Positions 38,437 through 57,734 of a DNA stretch of 64,000 nt are shown piece after piece. The stretch comes from a virus. The position numbers and the translations under genes were made by a program. Each line of letters opens with the position of its first letter. Position 1 is the first letter of the stretch. The DNA lies in the IMG/VR virus record IMGVR_UViG_3300006341_000010, positions 2,407-66,406 of that record, one strand, 5' to 3'. The notes under the pieces were generated by a model. That model was not told the DNA's origin. It made no database searches and worked only from the letters and a program-made list of their open reading frames with translations.

Positions 38437-38438
38437 TT

Positions 38439-43677: not shown

Positions 43678-44498
43678 GTACTATCATAGTAGATGGTGTA
43701 GCAGTTGACTTAACTGTTGGGTGTGATCCTGAGCTGTTCGTAAAGGACGAGCAGGGTCTTGTTTCAGCACATGGTATGGTTGAAGGAACTAAAGAAGCTC
43801 CTAGTCCAGTAGAGAAAGGGGCTATCCAAGTTGACGGAATGGCCTTGGAGTTCAACATCAACCCAGCTGAAAGCCGTGAGGTGTTTATCGTTAATACGAT
43901 GTCTGTCATGCAAGACTTAGTAAAGAAAATTCCTCAGGGTCATACCCTAGTAGTAGCCCCAACTGCTAACTTTGGTAAAGCTTTAATTGACCAGCAGCCT
44001 GATGAAGCTAAAGAGCTAGGTTGCTCTGCTGATTACAATGCATACATGCAAGGTGCAGCTAACCCTAAGCCCAACGGCGACGTTGATTTCCGTACGGCGG
44101 GTGGTCATATCCATGTGGGCTTCACTGAGAACGCTCACTCATCAGATCAGGAACACCAAGCTATCTGTCAAGAGATCATTAAGATGATGGACTTAATGCT
44201 CGGTGTTCCTTCAGTCCTTTTAGATGACGACAAGAAACGTCGTAGTCTTTACGGTGCTGCTGGTGCTTACCGCTCTAAGCCTTATGGTGTAGAGTATCGT
44301 TCGCTTAGTAACTTCTGGTTAAAGAGCAAGGAGTACATTGGTTGGGTCTATGACCAGACTGAAGTTACTATCAAGAAAGTCTTGGAAGGTTTAGATGTTT
44401 CGGAAGATGCTGCTAAAATCCAAAGAGTTATTAACAGCTCTGATAAACAAGGAGCTAAAGAACTCATTCGTAAATACAACATTCAGTTACCAGTTTAG
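43674..44498 (+). CDS. phiEco32-like COOH-NH2 ligase type 2
   Basis: VGCDPELFV, QVDGMALEFN, ELGCSADYNAY, RTAGGHIHVG, RRSLYGAAG..R.KPYGVEYRSLSNFW. Confidence 0.9.
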   Translation: MSTIIVDGVAVDLTVGCDPELFVKDEQGLVSAHGMVEGTKEAPSPVEKGAIQVDGMALEFNINPAESREVFIVNTMSVMQDLVKKIPQGHTLVVAPTANFGKALIDQQPDEAKELGCSADYNAYMQGAANPKPNGDVDFRTAGGHIHVGFTENAHSSDQEHQAICQEIIKMMDLMLGVPSVLLDDDKKRRSLYGAAGAYRSKPYGVEYRSLSNFWLKSKEYIGWVYDQTEVTIKKVLEGLDVSEDAAKIQRVINSSDKQGAKELIRKYNIQLPV

Positions 44499-44508
44499 GA
44501 GGAAGATA

Positions 44509-45150
44509 ATGCCTGATATTAATATTAGTTCACGCTACCGTGGTTCAGGTGACATCTCTATGCGTCACAATGATACCTATGTAGGTGTAGTACAACGTGA
44601 TGGTTCGGTTACTCCTTATCGTTGTCATGGTGCTAGTAGCTCAGATAGTATCTCTATCTCTAAGGTCCAAGGGTTCCAAGGGGATAGTGATATGAACATC
44701 GGACTGAATGATGATCGCTTGTTACTTGATCGTCCTCAGTGTGGTTATGCTACCCTAAGGAATGTTGATGGTGATAAGACAGCAGTGTACTTCTGTACTC
44801 GTGCCCTTCGCCAGTACAAACGTTCTTTAGTTTACTCACACCTACATCGTACCCCTGCTGGTAGTGGCCGAGGGGTGGACTATAGTGACCGTGGGAACTT
44901 AGGGGCTGCCTTGTTTACATTCTTCAATGATGTATATTCTTCTGTTGAGAATGCAGTGAATGAACTCAAAGACACTGACGCTGTTTCAATAGCGATTGGT
45001 AGTAAGTTTGCCTTAGCTAAGCATGAAGATAAAGGTATTGTCCTTTACTACAAGCGAGCAATAGTAGGTTGGTATGATCTTGAAGAAGAACAAGTCAAGT
45101 TAGTTAGTAGTTATCAACATCTTCAAGAACAATTAGAGGAGATCTCTTGA
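44509..45150 (+). CDS. Hypothetical protein of the ligase cluster
   Basis: AGGAGG SD places the start at ATG 44509 (MPDINIS). Confidence 0.7.
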   Translation: MPDINISSRYRGSGDISMRHNDTYVGVVQRDGSVTPYRCHGASSSDSISISKVQGFQGDSDMNIGLNDDRLLLDRPQCGYATLRNVDGDKTAVYFCTRALRQYKRSLVYSHLHRTPAGSGRGVDYSDRGNLGAALFTFFNDVYSSVENAVNELKDTDAVSIAIGSKFALAKHEDKGIVLYYKRAIVGWYDLEEEQVKLVSSYQHLQEQLEEIS

Positions 45151-46052
45151 TGTTAGTCAGTGAAATTATTGGACGTAGTTCAGGTGGTTTAGCAGGTGAG
45201 TTGGGCTTAATGGTATCAGGTACTAAGGTAGGGGTAGAGATTGAGATCCAAACAAACTCTAGCTCCCATCCAGTGGATCGCTCAGAGTATTGGCGACCAG
45301 TATCTGAGGGTTCAGTACAGGGCTTTGAGATTGTTCTACGTGAACCTCAAGGCGGTACTGATTTAGTATCAGCTCTTGAGGAAGCTGAATCATTGGTTGA
45401 TAGAATGGGTGGGAATGAGAAGTTCCCTGAGATGACTTCAGTCCATGTCCATGTTGATGTCCGTGACATGACAGAGATCCAGTTGTTTAACTTCCTCACA
45501 TTAGCAATCATGTTCGAGCCTGTGTTATACAATTATGTAGAACCACATCGAAACAAGAACCACTTCTGTTTGCCAATGTCTGATGCTGATGATGTACTTG
45601 GTCGCTTGTATCGTTTGGTATCTCGCTACCGTCAGCATGGTAACATCAACCGTGATCAGTTACGATCTCTATTCTCACCAGATGAAGTTAAGTATGCAGG
45701 TATTAACTTAAGTTCCATCCCGCACTACGGTTCCCTTGAGTTCCGAATGCACCATGGTACTGCAAGTTCTACCGCGTTGATCCGATGGATTAATGTCCTG
45801 TTAAAGATGCATCAGTATGCTATGGAACCTAACCGTTCCCCTAATAACATCCTTGATACTAAGATTGAGGTTGGGATTGAAACAATATTCCAACAAGTCC
45901 TTGGCCAATACTCAGGTGTGTTATCATACGAAGGCGTTGACGATGATATATTAGATGGGATCAGGAATGCACAGGACTTCGTTGCACTGTTCGCTCAGCC
46001 TGCGGGACGTAATGTCCTACAGGATATCCCTAATCAAACCCTAGGAGGATAA
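45147..46052 (+). CDS. Putative amidoligase (COOH-NH2 ligase family)
   Basis: VGVEIEI, EGSV.GFE, TSVHVHVDV, KYAGINL, GSLEFRMHHGT. Confidence 0.88.
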   Translation: MMLVSEIIGRSSGGLAGELGLMVSGTKVGVEIEIQTNSSSHPVDRSEYWRPVSEGSVQGFEIVLREPQGGTDLVSALEEAESLVDRMGGNEKFPEMTSVHVHVDVRDMTEIQLFNFLTLAIMFEPVLYNYVEPHRNKNHFCLPMSDADDVLGRLYRLVSRYRQHGNINRDQLRSLFSPDEVKYAGINLSSIPHYGSLEFRMHHGTASSTALIRWINVLLKMHQYAMEPNRSPNNILDTKIEVGIETIFQQVLGQYSGVLSYEGVDDDILDGIRNAQDFVALFAQPAGRNVLQDIPNQTLGG

Positions 46053-46053
46053 T

Positions 46054-47904
46054 ATGTCTAGGATTTTAATCATGGCACCTCGGGTTTCTGATGGTGCAAG
46101 GGCTTTAGCTGTAAGCTTATCTGAACTTGATGGTGTAGTAGCTCGTTATCGTCGCTTGGACCGAAGGGGTGTAGGCCGTTACAGTAATGTCAACCTAGCT
46201 ATCAACTGGGGCTGTGGGAATGGGGGTGAACCTGTAACCCCTTCTCAGTTCAATGCATTTGGTAGTCATCTGCAAGTGTTAAACCCAAGGACATGGCGAG
46301 CTACTAATAAGCTTATGGCTTTCGAAACTATTAGGCGTTGGAATAGAGACCACTCTAATGATGAACAAATTAACATCCCTGAGTTTTGTACTAGCTTAGG
46401 GGGGGCTCGTGAATGGGCAGGGAATGGTGGTGTATTCTGTAGGACTCAGTTACGTGGTCACTCAGGAACAGACATTGTAGTTGCCCGTCATCCTCGTGAT
46501 ATAGTCGAAGCTCCCTTATACACCAAGCTAGTCAACAAGCGACATGAGTTCCGATTACATGTAGCAGGTGGTCAAGTTATTGATGGTGTAAGGAAGGCCT
46601 TTAGACAAGATGTCCCTGAAAGCCAACGGAACTATGATGTCAGGAACCATGCAGCAGGTTCAGTATTCATCCGTTCAGGTCGTTCATTGTCTTCCTTACA
46701 GATGGATCCTGTAGCTCAAGCAATGGCAGTCAATGCCTGTAGGGCTTTAGGTTTAGACTTCGGTGCAGTTGATATGATGACTGACCAAGAGGGTAACTTC
46801 TATATCCTCGAAGTCAATACGGCTCCGGGTCTTGAGGCTACTACCTTAGCTCGTTACACTGATGCATTCCATAAGATCTCCCGTGGTGAACGCGTTCTAC
46901 GTTGGCAAGATCTTCCACTTAACCCTAACGCAACAACTGAAACACAAACTCAAACTCAAGAAACTAATAGTCAGGAGACTACTATGCCAGCACTAACTCT
47001 ATCAATCCAAACATTACGTAATCACCGTGAAGCACGTCAGGCTCTAGAGGGTCAGACAGTTACACCTACTAATGAATTCCGTGGTTCTACTTTAACAGCA
47101 GGTCGAGCTTATGAAGTCCGCCACTGTACTGTAGGTGACAACGGTCAGGTACGTTTGACTGTCCATAACGATCAAGGACGTGCCCAACGTTACACTTTGA
47201 ACACCAATAACTTCCGATTAGGTGGTCAATCAGCAGCCCCTCAGCTGCCTGAAGCTCAGGCTAACAACGAAGTAGATACATCACTACCTGTTGATTCACC
47301 TTTACGTTGTGTACGTTTACAGGATGGCAGTCAGGTAAACGTAGGTGGTCAGGCTCAGTTCAATCTAAGCAATAGCCGATTCCTAAGCCAAGATACCCCA
47401 TACACTGTTGCTGAGATCCGAGTTGGTTCTGAGACTGGTACTGCATTCTTAGGTATTAATGTTGAAGGTCGAGTCCGTCGCTGGCGTTTAGATTCTTTCT
47501 CTAATGGTGAGCGTGTAGCAGCAACAGCTCAAGCTACTACCTCTAACTCTAGTAGTCAGAATCGACCTAGTGAATCCCTTCAGACCTCAACAGGACAACG
47601 AGTTGAAGTGGGTACGCTAGTACGAGTTAATAGCAGAAACGGTAACCACGGTATCCGAGTAGGTACTTCAGGTACTGTTCGATCTATTAATGTGAGCAAT
47701 GGTACTTTAGTGATTGAAGGTCAGACTCGTGCTATCAATGTACGTCGAGTTGAAGTAGTTACTCCTGAGCAGGTTCAGCAAGAGAACCAAATCCGTGAGC
47801 AACAAAACAATACAGTGAGTGTTTCATTTGCTGGTACGAACTACCGAATCCGTAGTCGTGACCAACAACAAGTACAAACATTACTTAACCAATTAACTGT
47901 GTAA
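46054..47904 (+). CDS. ATP-grasp ligase with C-terminal repeated small beta (SH3/KOW-like) domains
   Basis: INWG, ATNKL, GHSG.DIV, LYTK..KRHEFRLHV, LGLDFGAVD, ILEVNTAPGL. Confidence 0.88.
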   Translation: MSRILIMAPRVSDGARALAVSLSELDGVVARYRRLDRRGVGRYSNVNLAINWGCGNGGEPVTPSQFNAFGSHLQVLNPRTWRATNKLMAFETIRRWNRDHSNDEQINIPEFCTSLGGAREWAGNGGVFCRTQLRGHSGTDIVVARHPRDIVEAPLYTKLVNKRHEFRLHVAGGQVIDGVRKAFRQDVPESQRNYDVRNHAAGSVFIRSGRSLSSLQMDPVAQAMAVNACRALGLDFGAVDMMTDQEGNFYILEVNTAPGLEATTLARYTDAFHKISRGERVLRWQDLPLNPNATTETQTQTQETNSQETTMPALTLSIQTLRNHREARQALEGQTVTPTNEFRGSTLTAGRAYEVRHCTVGDNGQVRLTVHNDQGRAQRYTLNTNNFRLGGQSAAPQLPEAQANNEVDTSLPVDSPLRCVRLQDGSQVNVGGQAQFNLSNSRFLSQDTPYTVAEIRVGSETGTAFLGINVEGRVRRWRLDSFSNGERVAATAQATTSNSSSQNRPSESLQTSTGQRVEVGTLVRVNSRNGNHGIRVGTSGTVRSINVSNGTLVIEGQTRAINVRRVEVVTPEQVQQENQIREQQNNTVSVSFAGTNYRIRSRDQQQVQTLLNQLTV

Positions 47905-47919
47905 TAACTAGGAGGTAAT

Positions 47920-48156
47920 ATTAATTACAACTTCTCAAATCTATCCTTGAAACAGATAGTAGGGTTGTTATGGGCAGACCAGAACCTGAGAGACTTTGGT
48001 GATCGTCATAGATTACTAACCTCTCAGGAAAGGAATAGCTGCTTTGCAATCCTAGGGAATCTTTCCGATGAAGAACTTGAAAGACTTCAAGGTGAGACCC
48101 CGTACTTCACATTGCTTGATTTACATCAGGCAAACCTAGACAACGTTACACTTTAA
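47920..48156 (+). CDS. Hypothetical protein (probable AUU start)
   Basis: AGGAGGTAAT-ATT in frame with the 47947 ORF. Confidence 0.55.
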   Translation: MNYNFSNLSLKQIVGLLWADQNLRDFGDRHRLLTSQERNSCFAILGNLSDEELERLQGETPYFTLLDLHQANLDNVTL

Positions 48157-48197
48157 TTAATCTTTATTCTTTAATAATATAGGAGAACTATACACAC

Positions 48198-48650
48198 ATG
48201 GCAAAGACAATCAAACAACGCGGTTCAGTTTTATTCTCAGCAATTGCAGACTTCGCTAAATTCAATAATCAATCAACAGGTAAGTATGAATTAGTACTTA
48301 CATTGAATGACGATCAGCGAGCAGATGCAGAGAGTAATGGTGTAGGAATCAACGTTAAAGATTATCAAGGTCAAGAACAAGCAACTGCTAAGTTTAAATC
48401 TAAGTTCAAGCTAGAGAAAGGCATGGTAGTTGATCGCTTTAAGAATCCTTATGTGGATGCTGAAGGTAACATCAAGGAAATCCCTCGTGGTTCTGAAGTT
48501 GTTGTGTTCGCTACATCTAAGCCATACTCATTCGCTGGTAAGACAGGGGTTACAAACTACCTGAATGCTATCCAGATTATTGAGGAAGCTAACTCTATTG
48601 ACTTCGAAGATTTCTCTGAGGAGTTAGAGGTGCAAGACGTTGAGTTCTAA
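48198..48650 (+). CDS. ssDNA-binding protein (T7 gp2.5-like)
   Basis: GKYELVL, IPRGSEV, YLNAIQII, acidic tail ending in F. Confidence 0.8.
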   Translation: MAKTIKQRGSVLFSAIADFAKFNNQSTGKYELVLTLNDDQRADAESNGVGINVKDYQGQEQATAKFKSKFKLEKGMVVDRFKNPYVDAEGNIKEIPRGSEVVVFATSKPYSFAGKTGVTNYLNAIQIIEEANSIDFEDFSEELEVQDVEF

Positions 48651-48843
48651 ACCAACGTATGAGGAGCTAGAGAGGGATCATGCGTTCCTCTTTGCTGCCT
48701 ACAAGCAAACCAAACAAAAACTAGAGGAGCTTGAAGGAGAGTTCATTAAACTAGAGAGCTTGGTGGAGCATATCCATCAGGCCTCAGGCTCTTACATTCA
48801 AGCTAAACTTGATAGTGTACCTGAAGCGGAGGATAAAGATTAG
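48640..48843 (+). CDS. Small coiled-coil protein
   Basis: 67 aa, GAGG SD, TTG start. Confidence 0.6.
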   Translation: MSSKPTYEELERDHAFLFAAYKQTKQKLEELEGEFIKLESLVEHIHQASGSYIQAKLDSVPEAEDKD

Positions 48844-50551
48844 TAACTTTCTAGGATCAGGGTTCCCATGCCCTGATTGTGGTAGCTCTAACGCTGTGGC
48901 AGAATATCACAATGGTATGTTCTGTCATAAGTGTCAGAGTAAATTCCCTAGCAAGGAAAAGTATTTCCAAGCTACTGGTGTAGCCCCTAAGCACCCTCAA
49001 GTAAACGATGGTGATCAGGCTATGCCTATGGACTCAGAGATTAAACAATCAACTCAGAGATTCAATATCCCTGAGGAGTTCGAGGGATCTAAACAAAAGC
49101 ATCGGGGTATTCAACCTGATGTATTGAACCGATATGGGATTAGGTTCAACGCAAGTGGTGACATGTTCACTATGATTAGGGACAAGGAAGGGAATCCATC
49201 AGGCGCTCAGATCTGTAAGGGCCAAAGGGATGAGAAAGGTAGGAAGAAGATTACAGCTATGGGTGATGTCAAAGATAAGGCTCTTATCGGACAACACTTA
49301 GCAGGTGGTAATGGTAATAGGTTAGTTATTACAGAGGGTTATCTAGATGCCTGTTCGGCTAGCATGATGCTAAATGGTAGATACCCTGTAGTCTCTGTCC
49401 TAAATGGTACAGGCTCAGCAGCTAAAGACTTTAAGAATAACATTGATTTCATTGAGCAGTATGATGAAGTTGTTATTTGTTTTGATAATGATAAACCCGG
49501 TCGTGAAGCAGCTAAAGAATGTGCTAACTTAATTACTCCCGGCAAAGCTAAGATAGTACCATTGGCTAAGTACAAGGATGCCAATGACTTCCTAGTCCAA
49601 GGACAGGTAAAAGAATTTGTTAAGTATTTCTGGGAGGCTAAGCGTCATCAGCCTGACGGGATCATAAACCTAGCAGATATCTTTGACCAAGTGTTAGAGG
49701 AAGATGAGAAACCTTCAACCCCTTATCCTTGGGAAGGCCTGAATGAAATGCTAGATGGTATCAGGACATCTGAATTAGTTACAATAACGTCTGGTTCAGG
49801 TATGGGTAAGTCTAGTATCGTACGAGAATTAGAGTATCACCTATTAACTACAACAGAAGATAAGATAGGGATCTTGGCATTAGAAGAAACACCAGTAAGA
49901 ACCACTCAAGGTATTATGGGTATCCATTGTAACTCTCAGTTGCATAGGAAAAAGTACAGGGATTTAGTTGACCCTAAGACCTATAAGGAAGCGTTCATGG
50001 CAACCGCAGGAACAGGTAGGTTAGTTGCTTATGATCACTTCGGTTCTACTTCTGGTGATAACTTGATTGCCCAGATCAGGTATATGATTAAAGGCTTAGG
50101 CTGTAAGCATGTAGTCTTAGATCACTTATCAATTGTAGTTAGTTCTCAAGAAGATGGTGGAGATGAGAGGAAGAACATCGACGCTATCATGACTAAGCTT
50201 AGGCAGCTAGTGCAAGAGACTGATGTCTCTATGTTCCTAGTGTCACACTTACGGAGAGCTTCAGGGGATAAGGGCCATGAGAATGGTGCTGAAGTTTCCC
50301 TTGCACAACTCCGAGGATCACAAGCTATTGCTCAGTTGAGTGATGCAGTGATTGCATTAGAGCGTGACCAGCAAGCAGAGAATGAGAAAGAAGCCAACCT
50401 TACCCGTCTCCGTGTACTTAAGTCTAGGTACACAGGACAGACAGGGATTGCAACCCACCTGTGGTTTGATCCTGATACTGGTAGGATGGTAGAGATTGGA
50501 GATACTGAAAAGGTTAAGGAGTTTTTAGCACCAGATGTTGAGGAATTTTAA
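48839..50551 (+). CDS. DNA primase/helicase (T7 gp4-like), probable AUU start
   Basis: CPDCGS...CHKC Zn finger, ITEGYLD/FDNDKPG TOPRIM, SGSGMGKS, VLDHLS, LRGSQAIAQLSD. Confidence 0.95.
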   Translation: MSNFLGSGFPCPDCGSSNAVAEYHNGMFCHKCQSKFPSKEKYFQATGVAPKHPQVNDGDQAMPMDSEIKQSTQRFNIPEEFEGSKQKHRGIQPDVLNRYGIRFNASGDMFTMIRDKEGNPSGAQICKGQRDEKGRKKITAMGDVKDKALIGQHLAGGNGNRLVITEGYLDACSASMMLNGRYPVVSVLNGTGSAAKDFKNNIDFIEQYDEVVICFDNDKPGREAAKECANLITPGKAKIVPLAKYKDANDFLVQGQVKEFVKYFWEAKRHQPDGIINLADIFDQVLEEDEKPSTPYPWEGLNEMLDGIRTSELVTITSGSGMGKSSIVRELEYHLLTTTEDKIGILALEETPVRTTQGIMGIHCNSQLHRKKYRDLVDPKTYKEAFMATAGTGRLVAYDHFGSTSGDNLIAQIRYMIKGLGCKHVVLDHLSIVVSSQEDGGDERKNIDAIMTKLRQLVQETDVSMFLVSHLRRASGDKGHENGAEVSLAQLRGSQAIAQLSDAVIALERDQQAENEKEANLTRLRVLKSRYTGQTGIATHLWFDPDTGRMVEIGDTEKVKEFLAPDVEEF

Positions 50552-50553
50552 TA

Positions 50554-52623
50554 ATGGACGAAGATCGTTTAGAAGAATTGATAGCAAGAGCGACGCAACT
50601 CAGAGAGCACCACCGGTCGATGGAGGAGTTCTTCACTAGTCAAGGCACTGAATATGTCACTTGGTCGTTCCCTGCTGAGGCAGATCTCCATGAAGAACTA
50701 TGTGATGAGGACTTAATATGAGTAATGTAGTTAGGGTAATGTATTATGGTGCCTATTCCCGAGAGGTTGTAGGTGTTCCTTACTTTAATTCAGGCAGAGA
50801 TCGGATTGATGAAGGAGACTGCGTGACTGAAGGGAAGGAAAACGATGGGTGGATTAACTTCCACCAAGACCCTGAGCACCTTTTAGGCAGTGGTATACCT
50901 TGTAGATCTAATTGTCAATGGGAGTCTCTGATATGAGTGATGTCAGGCGGGTAGTGTTCCGGGACGTGCAGATAGTAACGGAAGATTTTAATCACAACAT
51001 AGTTAATGGCCACACTATAAGACATGATGGTCTTACACTTTTCTGTGATTCTGATTGGGGTAGCTTAAATTATAGTGACGACCCTATGTATCTAATAGGC
51101 TCTAGATCAACGAAGTGGGGCTGCCAGTGGGAGGACTTAGTATGAGCGATGTTATATCTATTATGTATAGGCAAACAAACTATATAGGTCCTGTTGATGA
51201 AGTGATCCATAGGAATAACGGTAGACATAAGGTAGAGGGATTCCATACATTACTAGCTTCAGGCGAGGAACGTCATGATGATGGTCAAATATTTTTCTAC
51301 ATGGATGATAGATACCTACTAAGAACAGGCACAATATGTCCTTATAGTGGAACTCAATGGGAGTATCTGATATGAAAGTCATGGCAGTTTATGAGAAACA
51401 AACTACTTACCTTGGGGATCAGATAGACCATTGGATGTCAGGGATCTTAGCTTACACCAATACTACCTTATCACAATTCACCTTGTTAGATTGTATAGGC
51501 AATCATGCTATCTGTAGTAATAGTTTCTTAGTTGAGAGACCTGTTAACACAAACGTAATAGTGGAGGAATTAGTATGATTATTCAGGAAGATAAAGTAAT
51601 TGCTGTTAAGAGACTTGATCAATCAATCCCCTCTAGGAGTTTCATTTATCATAGAGCTTATGATGTCCAACATTTTATAGCTAGTTGTGATGAAGATGAT
51701 GAGACAAGGACATTGAAGAAAGACTCATCCCTTAACATGTTTAATTATGTGGAGGAATTGATATGACCATAGTATCAGTAGATGTAGAAGTAGATCTAGA
51801 TGACATTGACTTCGATGTTCTTAAGGACTATGTGTTAGAGGATCTAACGGACGATGAGATCTGTAGGGAAAGGGACTTGTATTCTGGGGAAGACTATGAA
51901 AGTCTTGAAGAAGAACTTGAGGATCTTAGAGGTCTAATAGCAGAGCTTCGGAGAGATATGTCAAACATGGAGAGGTTAGAGTAATGAAGGTTTTCTTAGT
52001 TAAGTGGAGGGATAGATTTATAGTAGGGGAGGCGGAGAGAGATGTAGAAATATACAGTGAAACTTTCCAGTACTATAATATCCGAGGGGAAGGGGTAGAC
52101 TATCAGACCGGTAGGATCTTAAACTCTAATGATGCCTTATGCTTCGACTATAGCTGGTTTGATAGATTCCCTGATCCCTTTTGGTATGCAGAGAGGTTGG
52201 TATGATATTAAGGAACGGTGATGTTGTTTCATTCTATGATGGTAATACTTATTATTACCCTAATAAACCCTTAGTCATAGAAGATTCTAGATCAGGAAAC
52301 CCAGAGTTTTGCTCAGGGATTGCTGATGAAGATAACATAGCAGTTACTTCAGGCATGCTCAGGGATAGGGAAGAAGCCCAGAGGCGTTGGCTTAATTCAA
52401 GTGATAGTATGATAGAGTATTTAATATGATAGTAGAAGATGGTGATGTGATAGCTCTTATAGGCTTTCATGGTAATAGGTTCTTTAGGGACTTAGAAGGA
52501 CAAGCGTTTGAAGTAATTGGATATAACCTAGATTTATTTAGGTTCTCATTTCAAGGCCATAGTTACCCTTGGGCGCGAGATTCTAGAACGTGGCGAGTAG
52601 GAGGTTGTGAATTATTAATTTAG
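50554..52623 (+). CDS. Array of ten translationally coupled small proteins (starts 50554, 50718, 50933, 51142, 51372, 51575, 51763, 51984, 52202, 52426)
   Basis: 55-77 aa each, joined by ATGA/TAATG overlaps; nine end in E-x-L-I/V. Confidence 0.75.
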
Positions 52624-52639
52624 AGGAGGTAATAGAAGC

Positions 52640-54520
52640 TTGCGGTTAAGCTTTGATATAGAAGGTAACGGTCTATTAGATCAAGTTACTACAATCCACT
52701 GTATTGTTACAGAGGATATTGATACAGGTGAATGCAGAGAGTTTGAGCCTCATGAGATTGAAGAAGGTGTTAAGCATTTAATGCAAGCATCTACTCTCAT
52801 AGGACATAACATTCTTGGCTATGACTTACCTGCTATCAAGAAACTTTATGGTGAGGAGTTTAAAGGTGAGACCTTAGATACCTTAGTATTATCTAGGCTA
52901 GCTAGGCCTGACAGATCTTTACACCCTCAGTGCCCTGCGAAAGTATGGGATGAACACAACCAGAAAGATAAAGCTGTTGGCCCACATACCCTTATGAACT
53001 TAGGGTACTACGCTGGTTTGAACAAAGGTGACTTTGGATCTGAAGCAGGGTGGGAGTATTACAGCAAAGAGATGTTAGAGTATTGTAAGCAGGATGTATT
53101 AGTTACAACACGGATATATAACTATCTCAAGAAAGAACTTCAGGGCTTTAGTGATCAATGTATTTTACTTGAACACCAATTCAATTATAGAATCCAACAA
53201 CAGATGGAACATGGTTGGTTCTTTGACATTGATAATGCTATGGAGTTAGAAGCAGAGTTAACTGAGAAGATGATGGAGCTAGAGGATGAGGTTCATAAGA
53301 CCTTTAAACCCATGGCTAAGTTCATTAGAGAGATACAACCAAGGGTGGTCAAGTCCGGTGGGTTATCTTCTGTTGGACTTAAGTTCCTAGAGAACTACCA
53401 AAACGTAGTACCTATCCCTGATTGGATTGATGGGGAGTATGGTGTTGAATACATCAATGGTGAATTCTCAAGGATTGATTGGGTTGAATTTAATCTAGGT
53501 TCAAGACAACAAATTGCTGATCAGTTACTCATGAGAGGATGGAAACCTAAAGAGTATACCGAGAATGGAAACATAATCGTAAACGAAAAGGTGTTGGGAT
53601 CTATTGCTTCTAAGTTTGAGGAAGCTAAGTTGCTTGCTGATTACTTCATGATCTCAAAGAAAAAGTCTATGGTATCTTCATGGATTGAGAAATACAATAG
53701 TGATACCGGTAGGATCCATGGGTATGTGAATACCTTAGGTGCTGCAACAAGACGTTGTACCCACTCCGGCCCTAACCTAGCACAAGTACCTGCGTCTAAG
53801 ACAGACAAAGAGGGGCACTTGGTCTTTGGGTTTGAGGGAGGTTATGGCGCTGACTGTAGGAAGTTATTCACTGTACCTCGTGGTTATAAGCAGGTAGGTT
53901 GTGATGCTAGTGGCTTAGAGCTTAGATGCTTAGCCCACTATATGAACGACAAAGAATACACTGACTTAATCTTACACGGTGACATCCACTCATATAACCA
54001 AAAGGCTGCTGGTTTACCTACCCGAAACAACGCAAAGACTTTCATCTATGGTTTCCTATATGGAGCTGGTGATGCTAAGATCGGAGAGATTGTTAATGGT
54101 ACAGCTAAAGACGGTAAGAGATTAAAGACAGCGTTCCTTAATTCCCTGCCGAGTCTTAAGAAGCTGAAGGAAGGTGTAGCAGTAGCAGCAACAAGAGGTT
54201 GGTTGAAGTCAATTGATGGTAGTAAGATCAGGATTAAATCTGAACATGCTGCATTAAACTTCTTATTGCAATCAGCAGGTGCTATTGTTATGAAGCAATG
54301 GCTCGTGTTAGTCTGTGAACAGGCAGACAAAGAACAATTGGACTATCATCCCGTTGGTAATATCCATGATGAAGGCCAATTCGAAGTAGCAGATAAGGAT
54401 GTTAAAAGGTTCTGTGAGATCTGTGAATCATCTATGAATAAGGCTGGTGAAATGCTAGGCTTCCGTTGTCAGATTGATGGCGAGGCTATGGTAGGTTCAT
54501 CGTGGGCAGCGACGCATTGA
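52640..54520 (+). CDS. Family A DNA polymerase (T7 gp5-like)
   Basis: FDIEGNG, GHNILGYD, DASGLELRCLAHY, RNNAKTFIYGFLYG, NIHDE. Confidence 0.95.
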   Translation: MRLSFDIEGNGLLDQVTTIHCIVTEDIDTGECREFEPHEIEEGVKHLMQASTLIGHNILGYDLPAIKKLYGEEFKGETLDTLVLSRLARPDRSLHPQCPAKVWDEHNQKDKAVGPHTLMNLGYYAGLNKGDFGSEAGWEYYSKEMLEYCKQDVLVTTRIYNYLKKELQGFSDQCILLEHQFNYRIQQQMEHGWFFDIDNAMELEAELTEKMMELEDEVHKTFKPMAKFIREIQPRVVKSGGLSSVGLKFLENYQNVVPIPDWIDGEYGVEYINGEFSRIDWVEFNLGSRQQIADQLLMRGWKPKEYTENGNIIVNEKVLGSIASKFEEAKLLADYFMISKKKSMVSSWIEKYNSDTGRIHGYVNTLGAATRRCTHSGPNLAQVPASKTDKEGHLVFGFEGGYGADCRKLFTVPRGYKQVGCDASGLELRCLAHYMNDKEYTDLILHGDIHSYNQKAAGLPTRNNAKTFIYGFLYGAGDAKIGEIVNGTAKDGKRLKTAFLNSLPSLKKLKEGVAVAATRGWLKSIDGSKIRIKSEHAALNFLLQSAGAIVMKQWLVLVCEQADKEQLDYHPVGNIHDEGQFEVADKDVKRFCEICESSMNKAGEMLGFRCQIDGEAMVGSSWAATH

Positions 54521-54598
54521 TTTATATTTATTTACATTCTTGGTGTAACTTTCCCCAATTGATTAAGTCTAAATGGTTTTATAATTGATGGAGGTAAC

Positions 54599-55018
54599 AT
54601 GCAGAATAATCATTTAACAGGAATGGCTTCTGAGTATAAAGTAGCTGAGCATTATACTAGAGAAGGCTATGCCGTTTACTGGACTATGATGTCTCAATCT
54701 AGGGACGACATAGTAATAAGGAAAGGCAATGAGTTCACTAGGGTACAGGTGAAGACCGGTACTTGGGTTCAGTCTGGTAAGTATAAATATTTACAATGTA
54801 GACTCAGGTCTGACAGAAGAAACGGAGGGACGTATGCCCCTTACACTCTTGAAGACTGTGACGTAGTAGTTATAGTTGAAGGGGATAGGCTATGGGAAAT
54901 ACCTGTAGCATGTGTTGCTGAAAGAACTAACATAACCTTGGATACTACTAACCCTACACCGAAAGCTAGTCAGAAAGATTACAACCCTGACGACTGGCTA
55001 GTAACTAACGGGAGGTAA
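54599..55018 (+). CDS. PD-(D/E)XK endonuclease (group I intron-associated type)
   Basis: G...E...GY.V...D.....RVQVKT. Confidence 0.75.
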   Translation: MQNNHLTGMASEYKVAEHYTREGYAVYWTMMSQSRDDIVIRKGNEFTRVQVKTGTWVQSGKYKYLQCRLRSDRRNGGTYAPYTLEDCDVVVIVEGDRLWEIPVACVAERTNITLDTTNPTPKASQKDYNPDDWLVTNGR

Positions 55019-55020
55019 CA

Positions 55021-55410
55021 ATTAAAACTGGAACAACTAATGAGCTTAAGGCTATGAGTTACTATAGTTCTAAGGGGTATGATATTTATATCCCTGTAGA
55101 CTCTAGTAGGATAGACTTCATTGCTCATAAGGACGAGGAACTATTAAAGATCCAAGTTAAAACTTGTTCAAAGAGGAGATACAAGGACACAGAATATCGT
55201 GTTGCAATCTTATCTTCTCGTAGAGGTAACGGTAACGTTGGCAACTATAAGTTGTCTGAGATAGATGAGTGCTTTGTCGTTGATAAAGATGCAGCTTGGA
55301 GGATTCCATTCAAAGCTGTGTACCCTAACATCTCAGTAATGCTAGATTCAAATAGGAAAGAGTACAAGCCTAAGCATAATCTTCCAGTGGAAGACTGGAG
55401 GGTGTACTAA
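55021..55410 (+). CDS. Second PD-(D/E)XK endonuclease, AUU start
   Basis: (M)KTGTTNELKAMSYYSSKGYDI...IDFI...KIQVKT. Confidence 0.75.
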   Translation: MKTGTTNELKAMSYYSSKGYDIYIPVDSSRIDFIAHKDEELLKIQVKTCSKRRYKDTEYRVAILSSRRGNGNVGNYKLSEIDECFVVDKDAAWRIPFKAVYPNISVMLDSNRKEYKPKHNLPVEDWRVY

Positions 55411-56297
55411 TTCTTAGAGTAGCTATATTGGATGCAGATATCGCAGTGTATCATGTATCAATTTCATGTGAACGTGAATCAAGACTGGAGGTAGTCAAAG
55501 AGACTATGGACTTATACATCAAGAACTGGCTATCATGTGCTGGGGCTGATGAGTATGTAGGTTATATAACAGAGTCGAAAGCTAACTTCAGAATACAACG
55601 TGCTTCTACTTGGCCTTATAAGGGTCAAAGGAAGAAAGCTAAACCCAAATGGTACTTGGCGATGCGAGAGTATGTCCAAGAACAATGGGGGTTTCAGAAT
55701 GTTATTGGGATTGAGGCCGATGATGCCTTGACTATAGCAGCTGAGAAACTTAAAGCTGAGGGTAAGGAGCCAGTGATTGTGACAGAGGATAAAGATCTCT
55801 TACAATACCCTGCTCTCCATTACAACCCTAACAAATCACATAATGTGTTTAGGATCTCAGAGGCTGAGGGTCACTATAACCTATGGCATCAAGTCATAAC
55901 AGGTGATAGGACTGATAACATTCCCGGTGTGTCACATGCCATTACCGAAACTAGGACAGGGACTTACAATAGATCTATCTCCGAGAGTGATTTACTTCCC
56001 GAGGATAAGATTAAATTGTTTAAGAAATATCCTAGGCAAGAACAGTATGGTAAATCCAGTGCAGCTAAATACTTAGAACAATTTCCACCTGAGGAATATC
56101 CCCTCAGGGTCTGGGAGTTATATGTAGATAAGTATGAGGACTTAGAGGATGAAGGTTCCTATGGATATGGGGACTTAAGATTCCATGAGACCTTTGATTT
56201 AATCTACATGTTAGTCAAAGAACCTGAAGGGGTTGAGGTCTTGGTAGAACCTAAGAAACCTCCAGTCCCTGAGGGAATTAAATTTTTAGATTTTTAA
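55410..56297 (+). CDS. 5'-3' exonuclease (T7 gp6-like), AUU start
   Basis: (M)LRVAILDADI, NFR, YKGQR, EADD, DKDLLQ, GDRTDNIPG. Confidence 0.9.
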   Translation: MLRVAILDADIAVYHVSISCERESRLEVVKETMDLYIKNWLSCAGADEYVGYITESKANFRIQRASTWPYKGQRKKAKPKWYLAMREYVQEQWGFQNVIGIEADDALTIAAEKLKAEGKEPVIVTEDKDLLQYPALHYNPNKSHNVFRISEAEGHYNLWHQVITGDRTDNIPGVSHAITETRTGTYNRSISESDLLPEDKIKLFKKYPRQEQYGKSSAAKYLEQFPPEEYPLRVWELYVDKYEDLEDEGSYGYGDLRFHETFDLIYMLVKEPEGVEVLVEPKKPPVPEGIKFLDF

Positions 56298-56314
56298 ATT
56301 AATATAGGAGGGAT

Positions 56315-57172
56315 ATGCCTATGGCTATCCGACATCATGGTAGGCCTAATGGTAGTGCCTTGCGACTGCCAAGTAGTAGTACTCAACACAACAGCACAGT
56401 TGCTGCTATCTTGGATGGGTTAGGTACCCAGATTAGACTTAACAACTTATATCTTAGAGAAAATCATGGTGTAGAGATTGACTTCCACATCGCTGGTAGT
56501 TATGCTTTATATGCTTGGCTGAGGCAGGGGTCTCATGAATCTAATCTTTTCATCCCTAATGACCTTGACATCTTTGTGGGTATTAGGATTGTAGATGAGG
56601 AGAAGTTTAATGAGAGAGATGATACTTTCATTAACATAAGGGAAACACCTGATGGGTTTAGTGAGTTAGAAGCTTATAAGCTCCAGATTATAAATGGCCG
56701 AGTAACTCATATGATAGGGTCTGTATTTCATGCCTTCCCTGCTAGTAGTTACTCATCTAGCCGTCTATCTGGGCTTCTCCATCGGAGAGATGCTACTTCT
56801 GAAAGTTCGTATAATACTTTACCTGATGTATTCTCATGCTATAGACTCAATATGGAAAACGCTAATATTCCAGACGTGGGTACAGTCCTTCCTAATTTAA
56901 ATATCATATTCAGACGAGACTTGATAGGGAATGGCTTTGATGAGAACCTGACAACCTTGTTTGATTCCTTTGATTTGTCTTTAACTAAGGCTGCAATATC
57001 TATTACTAATACACGAGGTAGACCACATCAAATCTTTATGAGTGTTGATGATTCCTTCAGGGAATCTATACAACAAAGGGTATGTGATTTTACTCTTGAA
57101 CCTCCTACAGGAGATAGGAAACAGAAGTATGAGGAGAGGTTGAGGGCTATGGGGTTTGACTGGACATGGTAG
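56315..57172 (+). CDS. Nucleotidyltransferase (CCA-adding/poly(A) polymerase head-like)
   Basis: HIAGSYAL...PNDLDIFV...FDSFDLSLTKAAI. Confidence 0.6.
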   Translation: MPMAIRHHGRPNGSALRLPSSSTQHNSTVAAILDGLGTQIRLNNLYLRENHGVEIDFHIAGSYALYAWLRQGSHESNLFIPNDLDIFVGIRIVDEEKFNERDDTFINIRETPDGFSELEAYKLQIINGRVTHMIGSVFHAFPASSYSSSRLSGLLHRRDATSESSYNTLPDVFSCYRLNMENANIPDVGTVLPNLNIIFRRDLIGNGFDENLTTLFDSFDLSLTKAAISITNTRGRPHQIFMSVDDSFRESIQQRVCDFTLEPPTGDRKQKYEERLRAMGFDWTW

Positions 57173-57389
57173 TATTTAGTCATATATACTCAGGGGATTG
57201 TTATGAGTTCAATCCCCAAACTCACCCTAGGACCATAAGGTCCTTAATGGAATTAATAGACTTCGAGATGTTAATATGAACATCAGAGTATTTAGACATC
57301 TATTCTCAGACCACTGTTATCAGTTTTGCTTTGGCAGTAACGCTTGTGCTATTATGATGGATAATAATAACTATGAGGAATTAATATAA
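57166..57389 (+). CDS. Two paralogous 37-aa proteins (57166-57279, 57276-57389)
   Basis: VFSHIYSGDCYEF vs VFRHLFSDHCYQF; end EMLI and EELI; ATGA overlap. Confidence 0.6.
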
Positions 57390-57467
57390 TGGAATATAGT
57401 TTGATGCTACCTGATAGCGTAGTAGATACAATTTTTAACGATCAATCTTTAATGGAGATGTTACCAA

Positions 57468-57734
57468 ATGAAGAAACACTTATTGAAACAGAAGACCTTG
57501 ACCTTGTTGGTCTTGATACACCGAGGCTTCCTGACGAAGGAGCAATCGGCTGAGCTGACAGATGAGCAGGTTTTAGAGAATGTACCGGAGAATCAAGGTA
57601 CATACATCTATCGCCCTGATGATTCATCTGAAGCAAGAGTATCAGCATTCACATACCGTTGGGTTAAGCAACGGGTGAAACAAAACCCTGATGTGACAGC
57701 TGAGGAACTCCTAAAGTCTGCGGGGTTTAAGTAA
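57468..57734 (+). CDS. Hypothetical protein
   Basis: 88 aa, GGAG SD. Confidence 0.6.
   Translation: MKKHLLKQKTLTLLVLIHRGFLTKEQSAELTDEQVLENVPENQGTYIYRPDDSSEARVSAFTYRWVKQRVKQNPDVTAEELLKSAGFK

What the first reader, a model, noticed from the sequence alone, without database searches (positions are those of the whole stretch)
45147..57389. A set of lysine-depleted proteins centred on the ATP-grasp/amidoligase genes: candidate Lys-directed conjugation system or tRNA-Lys-independent module
Seen (hand counts): the 616-aa ATP-grasp protein has only 5 Lys, all in the catalytic domain, and none in its last ~340 aa, while being Arg-rich. The amidoligase has 6/301, the 47920 ORF 1, and the nucleotidyltransferase (56315) 5/285. 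The ten small ORFs at 50554-52623 have 13 Lys in ~690 aa and the two 37-aa ORFs at 57166-57389 have none. Neighbouring SSB has 14/150, and an AT-rich genome should favour AAA/AAG. Established: ATP-grasp and COOH-NH2 ligases form amide/isopeptide bonds, GGCT-family enzymes cleave gamma-glutamyl-amine bonds, and host PrrC and PARIS AriB cleave tRNA-Lys. Inference: either (a) the cluster is a write/erase system ligating Glu or peptides onto Lys and its components have shed Lys to avoid self-modification, or (b) these proteins must be translated after tRNA-Lys is destroyed.
Basis: partly seen in the sequence, partly recalled or inferred. Interest (0 to 1): 0.88.

Follow-up and report, generated by a model that had tools for sequence, protein, structure and literature searches.

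The report
Lysine-free ligase proteins in a phage
A marine phage enzyme that makes amide bonds, and several proteins near it, have almost no lysine, and distant relatives show the same loss, which hints that this long-unexplained phage gene cluster attaches something to lysine-like amines.

Summary
The window covers most of a 66.4-kb phage (GC 40%, mean Lys 6.1%) that shares gene order with Pseudoalteromonas phage Slicky01.

- **ATP-grasp protein.** The 616-aa RimK-like protein has 5 Lys and 64 Arg (binomial p = 1.4e-11). Its last 342 residues have none.
- **Nature of the loss.** It is seen only in the reading frame. GC3 does not differ from that of other genes.
- **Homologues.** All 22 other full-length homologues (33-43% identity) have 0.5-1.8% Lys. 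Of 76 homologues with a C-terminal extension, 72 have at most 3% Lys there, including 17 of 20 whose catalytic domain has normal Lys.
- **Other Lys-poor proteins.** Amidoligase_2 tracks the ATP-grasp protein in Lys content. The 285-aa nucleotidyltransferase-like family is also Lys-poor (6 of 6 homologues of similar size). phiEco32 shows the same split: ligases poor, GATase and COOH-NH2 ligase normal.
- **Small ORFs.** The Lys-poor small-ORF arrays occur only in the Slicky01-like lineage and are probably a separate phenomenon.

Best reading (0.4): these are lysine deserts that protect carboxylate-amine ligases from acylating themselves. This would imply a lysine-like amine acceptor. The tRNA-Lys reading is weak, because invariant Lys codons remain and the genes sit among Lys-rich replication genes.

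The scan had noted this cassette in other genomes, but none of the eight notes it returned mentions lysine depletion.

The parts
40217..41137 (+). 306-aa protein of unknown family, first gene of the cassette. Moderately Lys-poor (10 Lys, 20 Arg).
   Evidence: p = 0.019. No Pfam or PHROG hit. Homologues in L001-L003 have a median of 3.9% Lys.
41137..41547 (+). Gamma-glutamyl(amine) cyclotransferase, AIG2-like (GGACT). 5.1% Lys.
   Evidence: PF06094, E = 3.8e-20, 73.1 bits against a cut-off of 22.8. Matches phiEco32 gp77 at 31% identity, E = 2.8e-12.
41548..41967 (+). HNH endonuclease inserted in the cassette. Normal Lys, and AGR Arg codons unlike its neighbours.
   Evidence: PF13392, E = 4e-8. 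Codon usage.
42045..43523 (+). Class-II glutamine amidotransferase. Normal Lys (7.3%).
   Evidence: PF13522, E = 8e-16. phrog_4736, E = 5e-72. Counts.
43674..44498 (+). phiEco32-like COOH-NH2 ligase type 2. Normal Lys (7.3%).
   Evidence: PF14395, 36.9 bits against a cut-off of 25. phrog_3815, E = 3e-84.
44509..45150 (+). 213-aa protein of unknown fold, homologous to phiEco32 gp85. 9 Lys, 15 Arg.
   Evidence: BLASTP against gp85, E = 1.2e-6. phrog_11055. Neither Pfam nor the Atlas gave an answer.
45147..46052 (+). Amidoligase_2 (glutamine-synthetase-like carboxylate-amine ligase). Lys-poor: 6 Lys, 18 Arg in 301 aa.
   Evidence: PF12224, 40 bits against a cut-off of 22. p = 6e-4. Its Lys level co-varies with that of the ATP-grasp protein (rho = 0.50, p = 2e-4).
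46054..46875 (+). RimK/Ddl/LysX-like ATP-grasp catalytic domain, holding all 5 Lys of the protein.
   Evidence: Pfam RimK and Dala_Dala_lig_C, both above cut-off. Foldseek match to RimK 4iwx, E = 3.7e-13. K86 and K181 are invariant, as are D240, E253 and N255, in 23 of 23 sequences.
46876..47904 (+). Lys-free tail of 342 aa: a linker, three beta-barrels (the third SH3/KOW-like) and a helix-hairpin-helix.
   Evidence: K-free run. Models. VIA-align best match 5oho_B: Z 8.8, rmsd 1.7, 59 residues aligned. Across 23 homologues this half holds 37 Lys and 606 Arg in 6,974 residues.
47947..48156 (+). 69-aa ORF with 1 Lys (78 aa if read from 47920), conserved downstream of the ATP-grasp gene in this lineage.
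   Evidence: Homologues in four loci, among them L002, L003 and L004.
50554..52623 (+). Ten overlapping small acidic ORFs (55-86 aa) between primase and polymerase. 13 Lys, 51 Arg in 709 aa.
   Evidence: The arrays at the same position in L001-L004 are also Lys-poor, but those in 8 other loci are not. No PHROG family at E <= 0.01.
56315..57172 (+). 285-aa protein resembling a Pol-beta/PolyA_pol-head (Gad2-like) nucleotidyltransferase. 5 Lys, 23 Arg.
   Evidence: Atlas feature and structure leads. No Pfam hit. Its 6 homologues of similar size have 1.9-3.3% Lys. The Slicky01 homologue has 4 Lys in 260 aa.
57166..57553 (+). Three coupled micro-ORFs (37, 37 and 54 aa) with no Lys.
   Evidence: Whether they are expressed was not tested.

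Best explanation
The Lys-poor large proteins are components of the phiEco32-type phage amidoligase cassette. They have evolved 'lysine deserts' because their own chemistry endangers lysine. ATP-grasp and glutamine-synthetase-like ligases activate a carboxylate as an acyl-phosphate and pass it to an amine. If the natural acceptor is a protein lysine, or a lysine-like primary amine, then any lysine on the enzyme could be acylated by mistake. The same holds if the activated carboxylate sits on a bound protein. Selection has therefore replaced every dispensable Lys with Arg, Gln, Asn, Ser or Thr. This applies most strongly to the domains fused to the catalytic domain.

Shown here: the depletion, its conservation, its occurrence in extensions I could not relate by BLAST, its co-variation with Amidoligase_2, and intact catalytic motifs. 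Inferred: the reason for it, and that the acceptor is lysine-like. The Lys-poor small-ORF arrays are probably a separate, lineage-specific trait of unknown cause.
For: 1. **Codon or residue level, not composition.** The loss is about ten-fold for in-frame AAA and four-fold for in-frame AAG. Off-frame changes are far smaller. GC3 is unchanged.
2. **Deep conservation.** All 22 other full-length homologues (33-43% identity) have 0.5-1.8% Lys and 8-11% Arg. Only K86 and K181 are invariant Lys. In columns that vary and contain Arg, Lys is a rare partner (52 cases, against 308 Thr, 303 Asn and 293 Gln).
3. **The fused segment is the core of the signal.** 72 of 76 homologues with an extension of at least 40 aa have at most 3% Lys there. 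This includes 17 of 20 whose catalytic domain has normal Lys: catalytic domains 368 Lys in 5,475 residues, extensions 54 in 2,286. Extensions outside the window's clade show no BLAST similarity to the window's (46 of 76 no hit at E <= 10, 3 more only above E = 1).
4. **At least two origins.** On a FastTree tree of catalytic domains, Lys depletion of the catalytic domain appears in a large clade and separately in L034/L038/P0027.
5. **Co-variation.** After normalising to housekeeping genes, the ATP-grasp Lys level co-varies with Amidoligase_2 (rho = 0.50, p = 2e-4, n = 49). It does not with COOH-NH2 ligase (rho = 0.11) or GGACT (rho = 0.20).
6. **Same split in E. coli phage phiEco32.** ATP-grasp gp80 has 2.0% Lys, amidoligase gp84 2.5%, gp85 2.9% and nucleotidyltransferase gp73 1.1%. 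GATase has 6.8% and COOH-NH2 ligase 6.7%. PaP3 orf43 has 1.7%.
7. **Association with GGACT.** Loci with a GGACT-like gene have a lower catalytic-domain Lys level (median 5.1% against 7.7%, Mann-Whitney p = 0.004).
8. **Fold.** The catalytic domain resembles RimK and LysX, enzymes that act on protein carboxylates.
9. **Precedent.** Lysine deserts that limit self-modification are described for ubiquitin ligases and proposed for pupylation (passages read in PMC10665810 and PMC13696103).
Against: - No modification, substrate or activity was measured.
- Characterised RimK, LysX and Ddl enzymes are not known to be Lys-poor. The 11 most distant hits, three of them labelled RimK-type ligases by their source, have 10.6-15.3% Lys.
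- Most phages with a short ATP-grasp form have normal Lys (median about 7%). Vibrio phage VPp1 has 8.5% Lys with Lys in its tail. P0028, L071 and P0037 have Lys-rich tails. The chemistry alone therefore does not force depletion.
- GATase and COOH-NH2 ligase of the same cassette are not depleted.
- The correlations are not corrected for shared ancestry. The GGACT model was built from relatives of the window's gene.
- This idea does not obviously explain why a nucleotidyltransferase-like protein and small acidic ORFs are Lys-poor too.
- The tree was read without support values and with a midpoint root.
Confidence: 0.4

Rival explanations
1. Host-driven avoidance. The Lys-poor proteins, especially the small acidic ORFs and the Gad2-like nucleotidyltransferase, are host-takeover or anti-defence proteins. 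They shed Lys to escape a host system that tags or degrades proteins through lysine, such as ubiquitin-like conjugation.
For: - The small-ORF arrays are Lys-poor only in the Slicky01-like lineage: the window and L001-L004 have 0.6-2.9% Lys, 40 Lys in 2,154 aa. Eight other loci have 5.9-11.8% at the same position. That pattern fits a host-specific pressure.
- The arrays turn over fast. None of the ten window ORFs had a BLASTP match in any fetched locus or a PHROG family at E <= 0.01. They nevertheless stay Lys-poor.
- The 285-aa protein has Atlas leads to Gad2, an anti-Gabija family.
- A host-driven reading has been proposed for Mycobacterium phages (passages in PMC13696103).
Against: - The ATP-grasp and amidoligase depletion recurs in phages of unrelated hosts: E. 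coli, Pseudomonas and marine contigs.
- Structural and replication proteins have normal Lys.
- No host Lys-directed system was identified, and the host is unknown.
- Early-region small ORFs, the usual home of takeover genes, are Lys-rich (7.4%).
Confidence: 0.17
2. A module independent of tRNA-Lys. These proteins must still be translated when a host anticodon nuclease (PrrC, RloC or PARIS AriB type) has destroyed tRNA-Lys.
For: - The selection acts on in-frame Lys codons.
- Five ORFs have no Lys codon at all (50554, 52426, 57166, 57276, 57389).
- The ORFs overlap start to stop, so a stall in one would spread to the next.
Against: - The ATP-grasp protein keeps 5 Lys codons, with K86 and K181 invariant in 23 of 23 sequences. 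The amidoligase keeps 6 and the 285-aa protein 5. Without tRNA-Lys none of them could be completed.
- The genes sit among SSB (9.3% Lys), primase (7.6%) and polymerase (7.8%) on the same strand.
- Early genes are Lys-rich.
- ARAGORN finds only tRNA-Arg(CCT).
- No RNA ligase or polynucleotide kinase appeared among the proteins scanned. Not every ORF was scanned.
- The depletion follows the fused extension across many phage lineages, which a host nuclease does not predict.
Confidence: 0.06
3. A structural or binding preference for Arg. The extension and its partners bind an anionic or aromatic-rich target for which guanidinium groups are needed, and Lys is lost as a side effect.
For: - The extension is Arg-rich (8.7% across homologues).
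- Its third barrel resembles KOW/SH3 domains of ribosomal protein L24 and of Spt5 (Z 8.8 to 5.6 across the 50 rows).
- Arg rises 1.8-fold in the Lys-poor set.
Against: - A preference would lower Lys, not remove it for 342 residues across sequences only 33-43% identical.
- Lys is replaced mostly by uncharged Thr, Asn, Gln and Ser, not only by Arg.
- Total Lys plus Arg falls from 12.7% to 9.6%, and the ATP-grasp protein is nearly neutral (net +2%).
- Extensions with no BLAST similarity to each other share the trait.
- From my recall, natural KOW proteins are Lys-rich.
Confidence: 0.12
4. A compositional relic. The cassette came from a high-GC, Arg-rich and Lys-poor donor and has only partly adjusted to this genome.
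For: - The cassette uses CGN Arg codons (62-97% of Arg codons), whereas six other genes tested here (primase, polymerase, exonuclease, 56315, ribonucleotide reductase and 24654-26735) use mostly AGR. SSB is an exception, with only 4 Arg codons, all CGN.
- Its GC is slightly higher (0.42-0.47 against 0.40).
Against: - GATase and COOH-NH2 ligase share the CGN usage but have 7.3% Lys.
- GC3 is no higher than elsewhere.
- Depletion persists at 33-43% identity in contigs of GC 0.40-0.49.
- Small ORFs of GC 0.33-0.46 that use AGR codons are also Lys-poor.
Confidence: 0.03

Closest known systems
phiEco32-type phage amidoligase cassette (Iyer, Abhiman, Burroughs and Aravind 2009, Mol Biosyst 5:1636). 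The paper is not held in the library; I know it through its citation in PMC10580990 and through Pfam family names.
   Same: The same gene set: GGACT, class-II GATase, COOH-NH2 ligase type 2, a gp85-like protein, Amidoligase_2 and a RimK-like ATP-grasp protein, placed next to the replication genes. Five of these match phiEco32 gp77, gp83, gp86, gp85, gp84 and gp80 by BLASTP.
   Different: Here the ATP-grasp protein carries a 342-aa Lys-free extension of three beta-barrels, against about 130 aa in phiEco32. An HNH endonuclease is inserted. My literature searches found no mention of lysine depletion in this cassette.
Lysine deserts in ubiquitin ligases (Slx5, San1, VHL, SOCS1) and the proposed link to pupylation (Szulc et al. 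2023, PMC10665810; review PMC13696103; passages read)
   Same: Long, conserved Lys-free regions in components of a machinery that makes amide bonds to lysine. The remaining Lys cluster in one domain. The ATP-grasp protein meets both published criteria (at least 150 aa, and at least 50% of the protein).
   Different: The enzymes here are ATP-grasp and glutamine-synthetase-like ligases of a phage of Gram-negative hosts, and no tag protein or protease partner is known. Unlike the Mycobacterium-phage case, GC bias is excluded here (GC 40%, in-frame only).
RimK (ribosomal protein S6 glutamate ligase) and LysX/ArgX (ligases of the LysW carrier)
   Same: Best structural matches of the catalytic domain: 4iwx at E = 3.7e-13, also 5zct, 3vpb and 5k2m. 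The Pfam RimK hit is above its cut-off. The ATP-grasp D...E-x-N motif is invariant.
   Different: Sequence identity is only 13-17%. The phage protein has a large extension. The Lys depletion is not shared by the 11 most distant hits, three of them labelled RimK-type ligases by their source (10.6-15.3% Lys). Neither substrate nor product was tested.
Phage answers to tRNA-Lys anticodon nucleases (PrrC countered by T4 Pnk/Rnl1; PARIS countered by a T5 tRNA-Lys).
   Same: Both concern Lys codons during infection.
   Different: This genome has no tRNA-Lys gene, and I found no RNA repair enzyme among the proteins scanned. Lys codons are reduced but not removed in the large proteins.

Membership tests
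ATP-grasp superfamily, RimK-like | Sequence match to the RimK or Ddl C-terminal ATP-grasp models above the curated cut-off | tested here: met
   PF08443, 25.5 bits against 21. PF07478, 26.7 bits against 24.
ATP-grasp superfamily, RimK-like | ATP-grasp fold with the conserved Mg/ATP-binding D...E-x-N motif and phosphate-binding Lys | tested here: met
   Foldseek match to RimK 4iwx at E = 3.7e-13. D240, E253, N255, K86 and K181 are invariant in 23 of 23 sequences. The profile aligns GAVD...lEvNTaPG to Ddl.
ATP-grasp superfamily, RimK-like | Adds glutamate to the C-terminus of ribosomal protein S6 | not testable with these tools
   This needs a biochemical assay.
phiEco32-type amidoligase cassette | Co-located GGACT, class-II GATase, COOH-NH2 ligase type 2, Amidoligase_2 and ATP-grasp genes | tested here: met
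   All five Pfam families score above cut-off at 41137-47904. Five genes have BLASTP matches in phiEco32.
Lysine desert (criteria of Szulc et al. 2023) | A continuous Lys-free region of at least 150 aa, or covering at least 50% of the protein | tested here: met
   The ATP-grasp protein has 342 aa, or 56%. It is the only ORF called in the window that meets both criteria. Two tail-fibre-like proteins have runs of 156-158 aa.
Lysine desert (criteria of Szulc et al. 2023) | Conserved in homologues and not explained by GC content | tested here: met
Pupylation-like tagging (PafA, Dop, Pup) | A small tag protein ligated through its C-terminal Glu to a substrate Lys | not tested
   I did not search for a Pup-like gene. 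The small ORFs end in hydrophobic residues.
tRNA-Lys-nuclease escape module | The needed proteins are free of Lys codons | tested here: not met
   5, 6 and 5 Lys codons remain in the three large proteins, two of them invariant. Only five micro-ORFs have none.
tRNA-Lys-nuclease escape module | A phage tRNA-Lys gene or tRNA repair enzymes | tested here: inconclusive
   ARAGORN finds only tRNA-Arg(CCT) in the window. None appeared among the proteins scanned, but not every ORF was scanned.
Gad2 / PolyA_pol-head nucleotidyltransferase (for 56315-57172) | Match to the family model | tested here: inconclusive
   The Atlas gives a feature score of 0.95 and structural TM of 0.47-0.68 to clusters partly labelled Gad2 or PolyA_pol. 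There is no Pfam hit. PF26128 is not in the local library.

The most novel reading that the evidence does not exclude
The phiEco32-type cassette is a phage-encoded protein-lysine conjugation system. The ATP-grasp and Amidoligase_2 enzymes would attach glutamyl or short peptide groups to lysines of host (or phage) proteins. The beta-barrel extension would recruit the targets, and GGACT would recycle gamma-glutamyl-lysine. The enzymes, and in this lineage a set of small co-expressed proteins, would have become lysine-free to stay unmodified. This would be a pupylation-like tagging system in phages of Gram-negative bacteria.
Probability: 0.22. Interest if true: 0.85.

Novelty: new variant of a known kind. 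Interest (0 to 1): 0.62.

Why it matters
According to a 2023 paper (PMC10580990) and the earlier notes of this scan, the function of the phiEco32-type amidoligase cassette is still untested. My tblastn search matched the ATP-grasp protein in 312 sequenced phage records.

A conserved, GC-independent lysine desert in its ligases is a sequence-level clue to the chemistry. It points to a lysine-like amine acceptor, or to a protein-borne activated carboxylate. That turns an open question into direct experiments: open-search mass spectrometry for Lys adducts, and Arg-to-Lys restoration. These are feasible in phiEco32 and E. coli, where the same pattern holds.

It also gives the lysine-desert field a phage example that lacks the GC confound affecting the Mycobacterium-phage data.

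Tried and rejected
- **Recent Lys-to-Arg transitions served by the phage tRNA-Arg(CCT).** Rejected for the cassette, where the extra Arg codons are mostly CGT and CGA. The small ORFs do use AGR (39 of 51), close to the genome's general habit.
- **Nucleotide-level avoidance of AAA and AAG.** Rejected. The large loss is in-frame.
- **The C-terminal E-E-L-I/V motif of the small ORFs as a protein signal.** It coincides with a GAGGA Shine-Dalgarno sequence plus an ATGA stop-start overlap for the next gene. I did not pursue it.
- **The extension as a fused copy of the 'lysine-less GcvH-like partner' noted earlier by the scan.** ORFs downstream of short ATP-grasp genes in my loci vary and have normal Lys. 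Fold search gave SH3/KOW/BAH-like barrels, not a clear lipoyl fold. Not supported, but not excluded.
- **Complex prediction of the ATP-grasp protein (A1) with Amidoligase_2 (A3).** No answer: score 0.00 against a mark of 0.32. This is not evidence either way.
- **Atlas search with the 213-aa protein (44509-45150).** No usable hit.
- **Word-based search for homologues of the 285-aa protein.** It found only the protein itself. The exhaustive search found 7 others, one of them a 1,048-aa protein that I set aside.
- **PHROG scan of the ten small ORFs.** Nothing at E <= 0.01.
- **Literature.** Searches found no experimental work on the cassette and no mention of its lysine depletion. Iyer et al. 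2009 is not held, so I did not read its text. Supplements were not consulted.
- **Limits of my ORF calls.** I used a greedy longest-ORF rule, so they include some spurious small ORFs and some start codons that are too early.

Full report
**What the window is.** The window is 64,000 of the 66,406 bases of a phage genome with GC 40%. Its nearest named relative is Pseudoalteromonas phage vB_PtuP_Slicky01, which has the same gene order across this region. Positions 40217-47904 hold the phiEco32-type amidoligase cassette, in this order:
- a 306-aa protein of unknown family;
- GGACT (PF06094, E = 3.8e-20);
- an inserted HNH endonuclease;
- a class-II GATase;
- COOH-NH2 ligase type 2;
- a 213-aa homologue of phiEco32 gp85;
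- Amidoligase_2;
- a 616-aa RimK-like ATP-grasp protein.

SSB, primase-helicase, ten small ORFs, DNA polymerase, two PD-(D/E)XK proteins, a 5'-3' exonuclease, a 285-aa protein and further micro-ORFs follow on the same strand.

Over 95 called ORFs (20,476 aa) the genome averages 6.10% Lys and 4.75% Arg.
- The ATP-grasp protein has 5 Lys and 64 Arg (p = 1.4e-11). Its Lys lie at residues 86, 158, 162, 181 and 274, leaving a 342-aa Lys-free tail. That is the longest such run in the window and the only one above half of its protein.
- Amidoligase_2 has 6 Lys in 301 aa (p = 6e-4).
- The 285-aa protein has 5 Lys in 285 aa (p = 4e-4).
- The ten small ORFs have 13 Lys and 51 Arg in 709 aa (p = 3.5e-8).
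- The two 37-aa ORFs and the next 54-aa ORF have none.
- The ORF read from 47920 has one.
- GATase and COOH-NH2 ligase type 2, in the same cassette, have 7.3% Lys each.

**Composition does not explain it.** In a pooled Lys-poor set (2,353 codons) Lys is 1.7%, against 8.3% in a pooled normal set (5,036 codons). Arg rises 1.8-fold, and Asn, Gln and Ser rise modestly. In-frame AAA falls from 3.53% to 0.34% and in-frame AAG from 4.75% to 1.11%. In the other two frames AAA is 1.55 and 0.92% in the poor set against 1.36 and 1.48%, and AAG is 2.81 and 1.21% against 4.23 and 0.79%, so the off-frame changes are much smaller. GC3 of the cassette genes is 0.27-0.40, the same as elsewhere.

**The depletion is conserved.** A search of 5.8 billion proteins gave 78 hits at E <= 1e-5.
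- The query and all 22 other full-length forms (557-625 aa, 33-43% identity) have 0.5-1.8% Lys and 8.1-10.8% Arg.
- Of the 44 hits P0024-P0067 (338-904 aa, mostly shorter), 23 have at most 2.2% Lys and 21 have 2.9-9.0%.
- The 11 most distant hits, three of them labelled RimK-type ligases by their source, have 10.6-15.3%.

In the alignment of the 23 full-length forms only K86 and K181 are invariant Lys. K158 is kept in 16 sequences and K162 in 12. The half beyond residue 300 holds 37 Lys and 606 Arg in 6,974 residues. In variable columns that contain Arg, Lys appears 52 times, against 308 Thr, 303 Asn and 293 Gln. Slicky01 repeats the pattern: ATP-grasp 5 Lys in 628 aa, the 260-aa homologue of the 285-aa protein 4 Lys, and small ORFs after the primase with 0, 2 and 4 Lys.

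**The fused segment is where the signal sits.** I fetched 80 IMG/VR loci that encode relatives, called their ORFs and split each ATP-grasp protein into a catalytic domain and an extension with an HMM.
- Forms without an extension (about 250 aa) have a median near 7% Lys.
- Of 76 proteins with an extension of at least 40 aa, 72 have at most 3% Lys in it.
- Among the 20 distinct ones whose catalytic domain has normal Lys (368 Lys in 5,475 residues, 6.7%), 17 still have an extension with at most 3% Lys. Extensions overall hold 54 Lys in 2,286 residues, and 34 of those Lys come from P0028, L071, P0037 and P0066.
- The window's extension has no BLAST similarity to extensions outside its own clade. 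46 of 76 give no hit at E <= 10, and 3 more hit only above E = 1.
- On a FastTree tree of catalytic domains (midpoint root, support values not examined), Lys loss in the catalytic domain marks one large clade and, separately, L034/L038/P0027.

**Structure.** AlphaFold2 on the 23-sequence alignment gave a mean pLDDT of 82.7.
- The N-terminal 290 residues match RimK, Ddl, LysX/ArgX and the graspetide ligases (4iwx at E = 3.7e-13).
- The extension, modelled alone at pLDDT 73.6, is three beta-barrels followed by a helix-hairpin-helix.
- The third barrel resembles KOW/SH3 domains. The best match is 5oho_B at Z 8.8, rmsd 1.7 and 59 aligned residues. Many L24 proteins follow at Z 6-7.5. The tool warns that such scores can reflect a common arrangement only.

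**Partners.**
- After normalising to housekeeping genes, the ATP-grasp Lys level correlates with that of Amidoligase_2 (rho = 0.50, p = 2e-4, n = 49). It does not correlate with COOH-NH2 ligase (rho = 0.11) or GGACT (rho = 0.20). The test is not corrected for phylogeny.
- In L034 and L038, a different phage group with GC 0.49, Amidoligase_2 has 0.7% Lys and the ATP-grasp protein 0.9%.
- In E. coli phage phiEco32, gp80 (ATP-grasp) has 2.0% Lys, gp84 (amidoligase) 2.5%, gp85 2.9% and gp87 2.8%. The 'nucleotidyltransferase' gp73 has 1.1%, with a weak PolyA_pol-head hit at E = 0.002, below cut-off. GATase has 6.8% and COOH-NH2 ligase 6.7%.
- Pseudomonas phage PaP3 orf43 has 1.7%. Vibrio phage VPp1 is an exception at 8.5%.
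- The window's 285-aa protein has Atlas leads to Gad2 and PolyA_pol-head nucleotidyltransferases. An exhaustive HMMER search found seven other proteins. The six of similar size (226-274 aa, 29-37% identity) have 1.9-3.3% Lys and 6.6-8.4% Arg. The seventh, of 1,048 aa with 0.2% Lys, I set aside.
- Loci with a GGACT-like gene have a lower catalytic-domain Lys level (median 5.1% against 7.7%, p = 0.004). This too is uncorrected for ancestry, and the model was built from relatives of the window's gene.

**The small ORFs look like a separate matter.** Between primase and polymerase, the window and L001-L004 have 0.6-2.9% Lys (40 Lys and 166 Arg in 2,154 aa). Eight other loci with small ORFs at that position have 5.9-11.8%, and they include L034, which has a long, Lys-poor ATP-grasp protein. 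The ORFs near the phiEco32 cassette are Lys-rich. The window's ten ORFs are strongly acidic (net charge -9.7%) and use AGR Arg codons (39 of 51), whereas the cassette uses CGN. None of the ten had a BLASTP match in any fetched locus, and none has a PHROG family at E <= 0.01. Three of them (50718, 50912, 51115) look like paralogues by eye. Their shared C-terminal E-x-L-I/V coincides with the Shine-Dalgarno sequence and the ATGA overlap of the next gene.

**Interpretation.** The best-supported reading is a lysine desert that protects carboxylate-amine ligases, and whatever is tethered to them, from acylating their own lysines. This is analogous to the deserts described for ubiquitin ligases and proposed for pupylation (passages read in PMC10665810 and PMC13696103). 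It implies that the cassette's acceptor is a lysine or a lysine-like amine, or that the activated carboxylate is carried on a protein. The presence of a GGACT-family enzyme fits gamma-glutamyl-amine chemistry. PMC2954230 (passages read) documents the family's gamma-glutamylamine cyclotransferase activity. That gamma-glutamyl-epsilon-lysine is a substrate is my recall.

I give this reading 0.4 because no chemistry was measured and many relatives are not depleted. It also does not clearly cover the nucleotidyltransferase-like protein or the small ORFs.

The rivals are:
- a host Lys-directed pressure (0.17), which fits the lineage-restricted small ORFs best;
- an Arg-specific binding need (0.12);
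- tRNA-Lys independence (0.06);
- a compositional relic (0.03).

The rest is unassigned.

**Novelty.** The cassette itself is known, and this scan has noted it in several other genomes. None of the eight notes returned mentions lysine depletion. My literature searches found no paper that links this cassette to lysine loss. The published phage lysine-desert data that I read concern pan-proteomes of Mycobacterium, Escherichia and Bacillus phages, with an acknowledged GC confound.

Noticed in passing
window 40217-47904, compared with 48809-57172, 61582-63414 and 24654-26735: The whole amidoligase cassette, except the inserted HNH gene, uses CGN (mostly CGT) for 62-97% of its Arg codons. Primase, polymerase, exonuclease, the 285-aa gene, ribonucleotide reductase and 24654-26735 use mostly AGA/AGG (CGN 23-46%) at the same GC3. 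SSB is an exception with only 4 Arg codons, all CGN. The difference has the same direction in L001-L004. It includes the Lys-normal GATase and COOH-NH2 ligase, so it is separate from the Lys loss.
   Followed up: partly
window 36187-36263: The only tRNA gene is tRNA-Arg(CCT), which reads AGG, the commonest Arg codon of the non-cassette genes. Slicky01 also carries a tRNA-Arg at the matching position.
   Followed up: partly
L082 (phiEco32) 13443-14756: phiEco32 gp73, annotated as a nucleotidyltransferase and placed next to the polymerase exonuclease subunit, has only 5 Lys and 34 Arg in 437 aa. It has a sub-threshold PolyA_pol-head hit (E = 0.002). It shares a P-x-D-x-D-I-F motif with the window's 285-aa protein but no significant BLAST match.
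   Followed up: partly
window 41548-41967 and 59593-60006: An HNH endonuclease gene sits between the GGACT and GATase genes of the cassette. A second protein resembling a homing endonuclease lies at 59593-60006.
   Followed up: no
window 54599-55018 and 55054-55410: Two adjacent PD-(D/E)XK_5 endonuclease paralogues lie between the polymerase and the exonuclease.
   Followed up: no
window 37202-39140: Three consecutive genes of about 200-230 aa (37202, 37837, 38439) all match the same single protein in L002. Two of them hit phrog_36157, so they look like a tandem triplication.
   Followed up: no
P0085 (search hit, 1,048 aa): A 1,048-aa protein that matches a short part of the 285-aa protein in six stretches has only 2 Lys (0.2%).
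   Followed up: no
L083 (PaP3) 9205-10401: PaP3 orf46, annotated as similar to a glutamine-fructose-6-phosphate aminotransferase, has 1.8% Lys and 8.0% Arg. The neighbouring 517-aa orf45 has 5.4%. The annotation may be shifted by one gene, with orf46 being the amidoligase. I did not check this.
   Followed up: no
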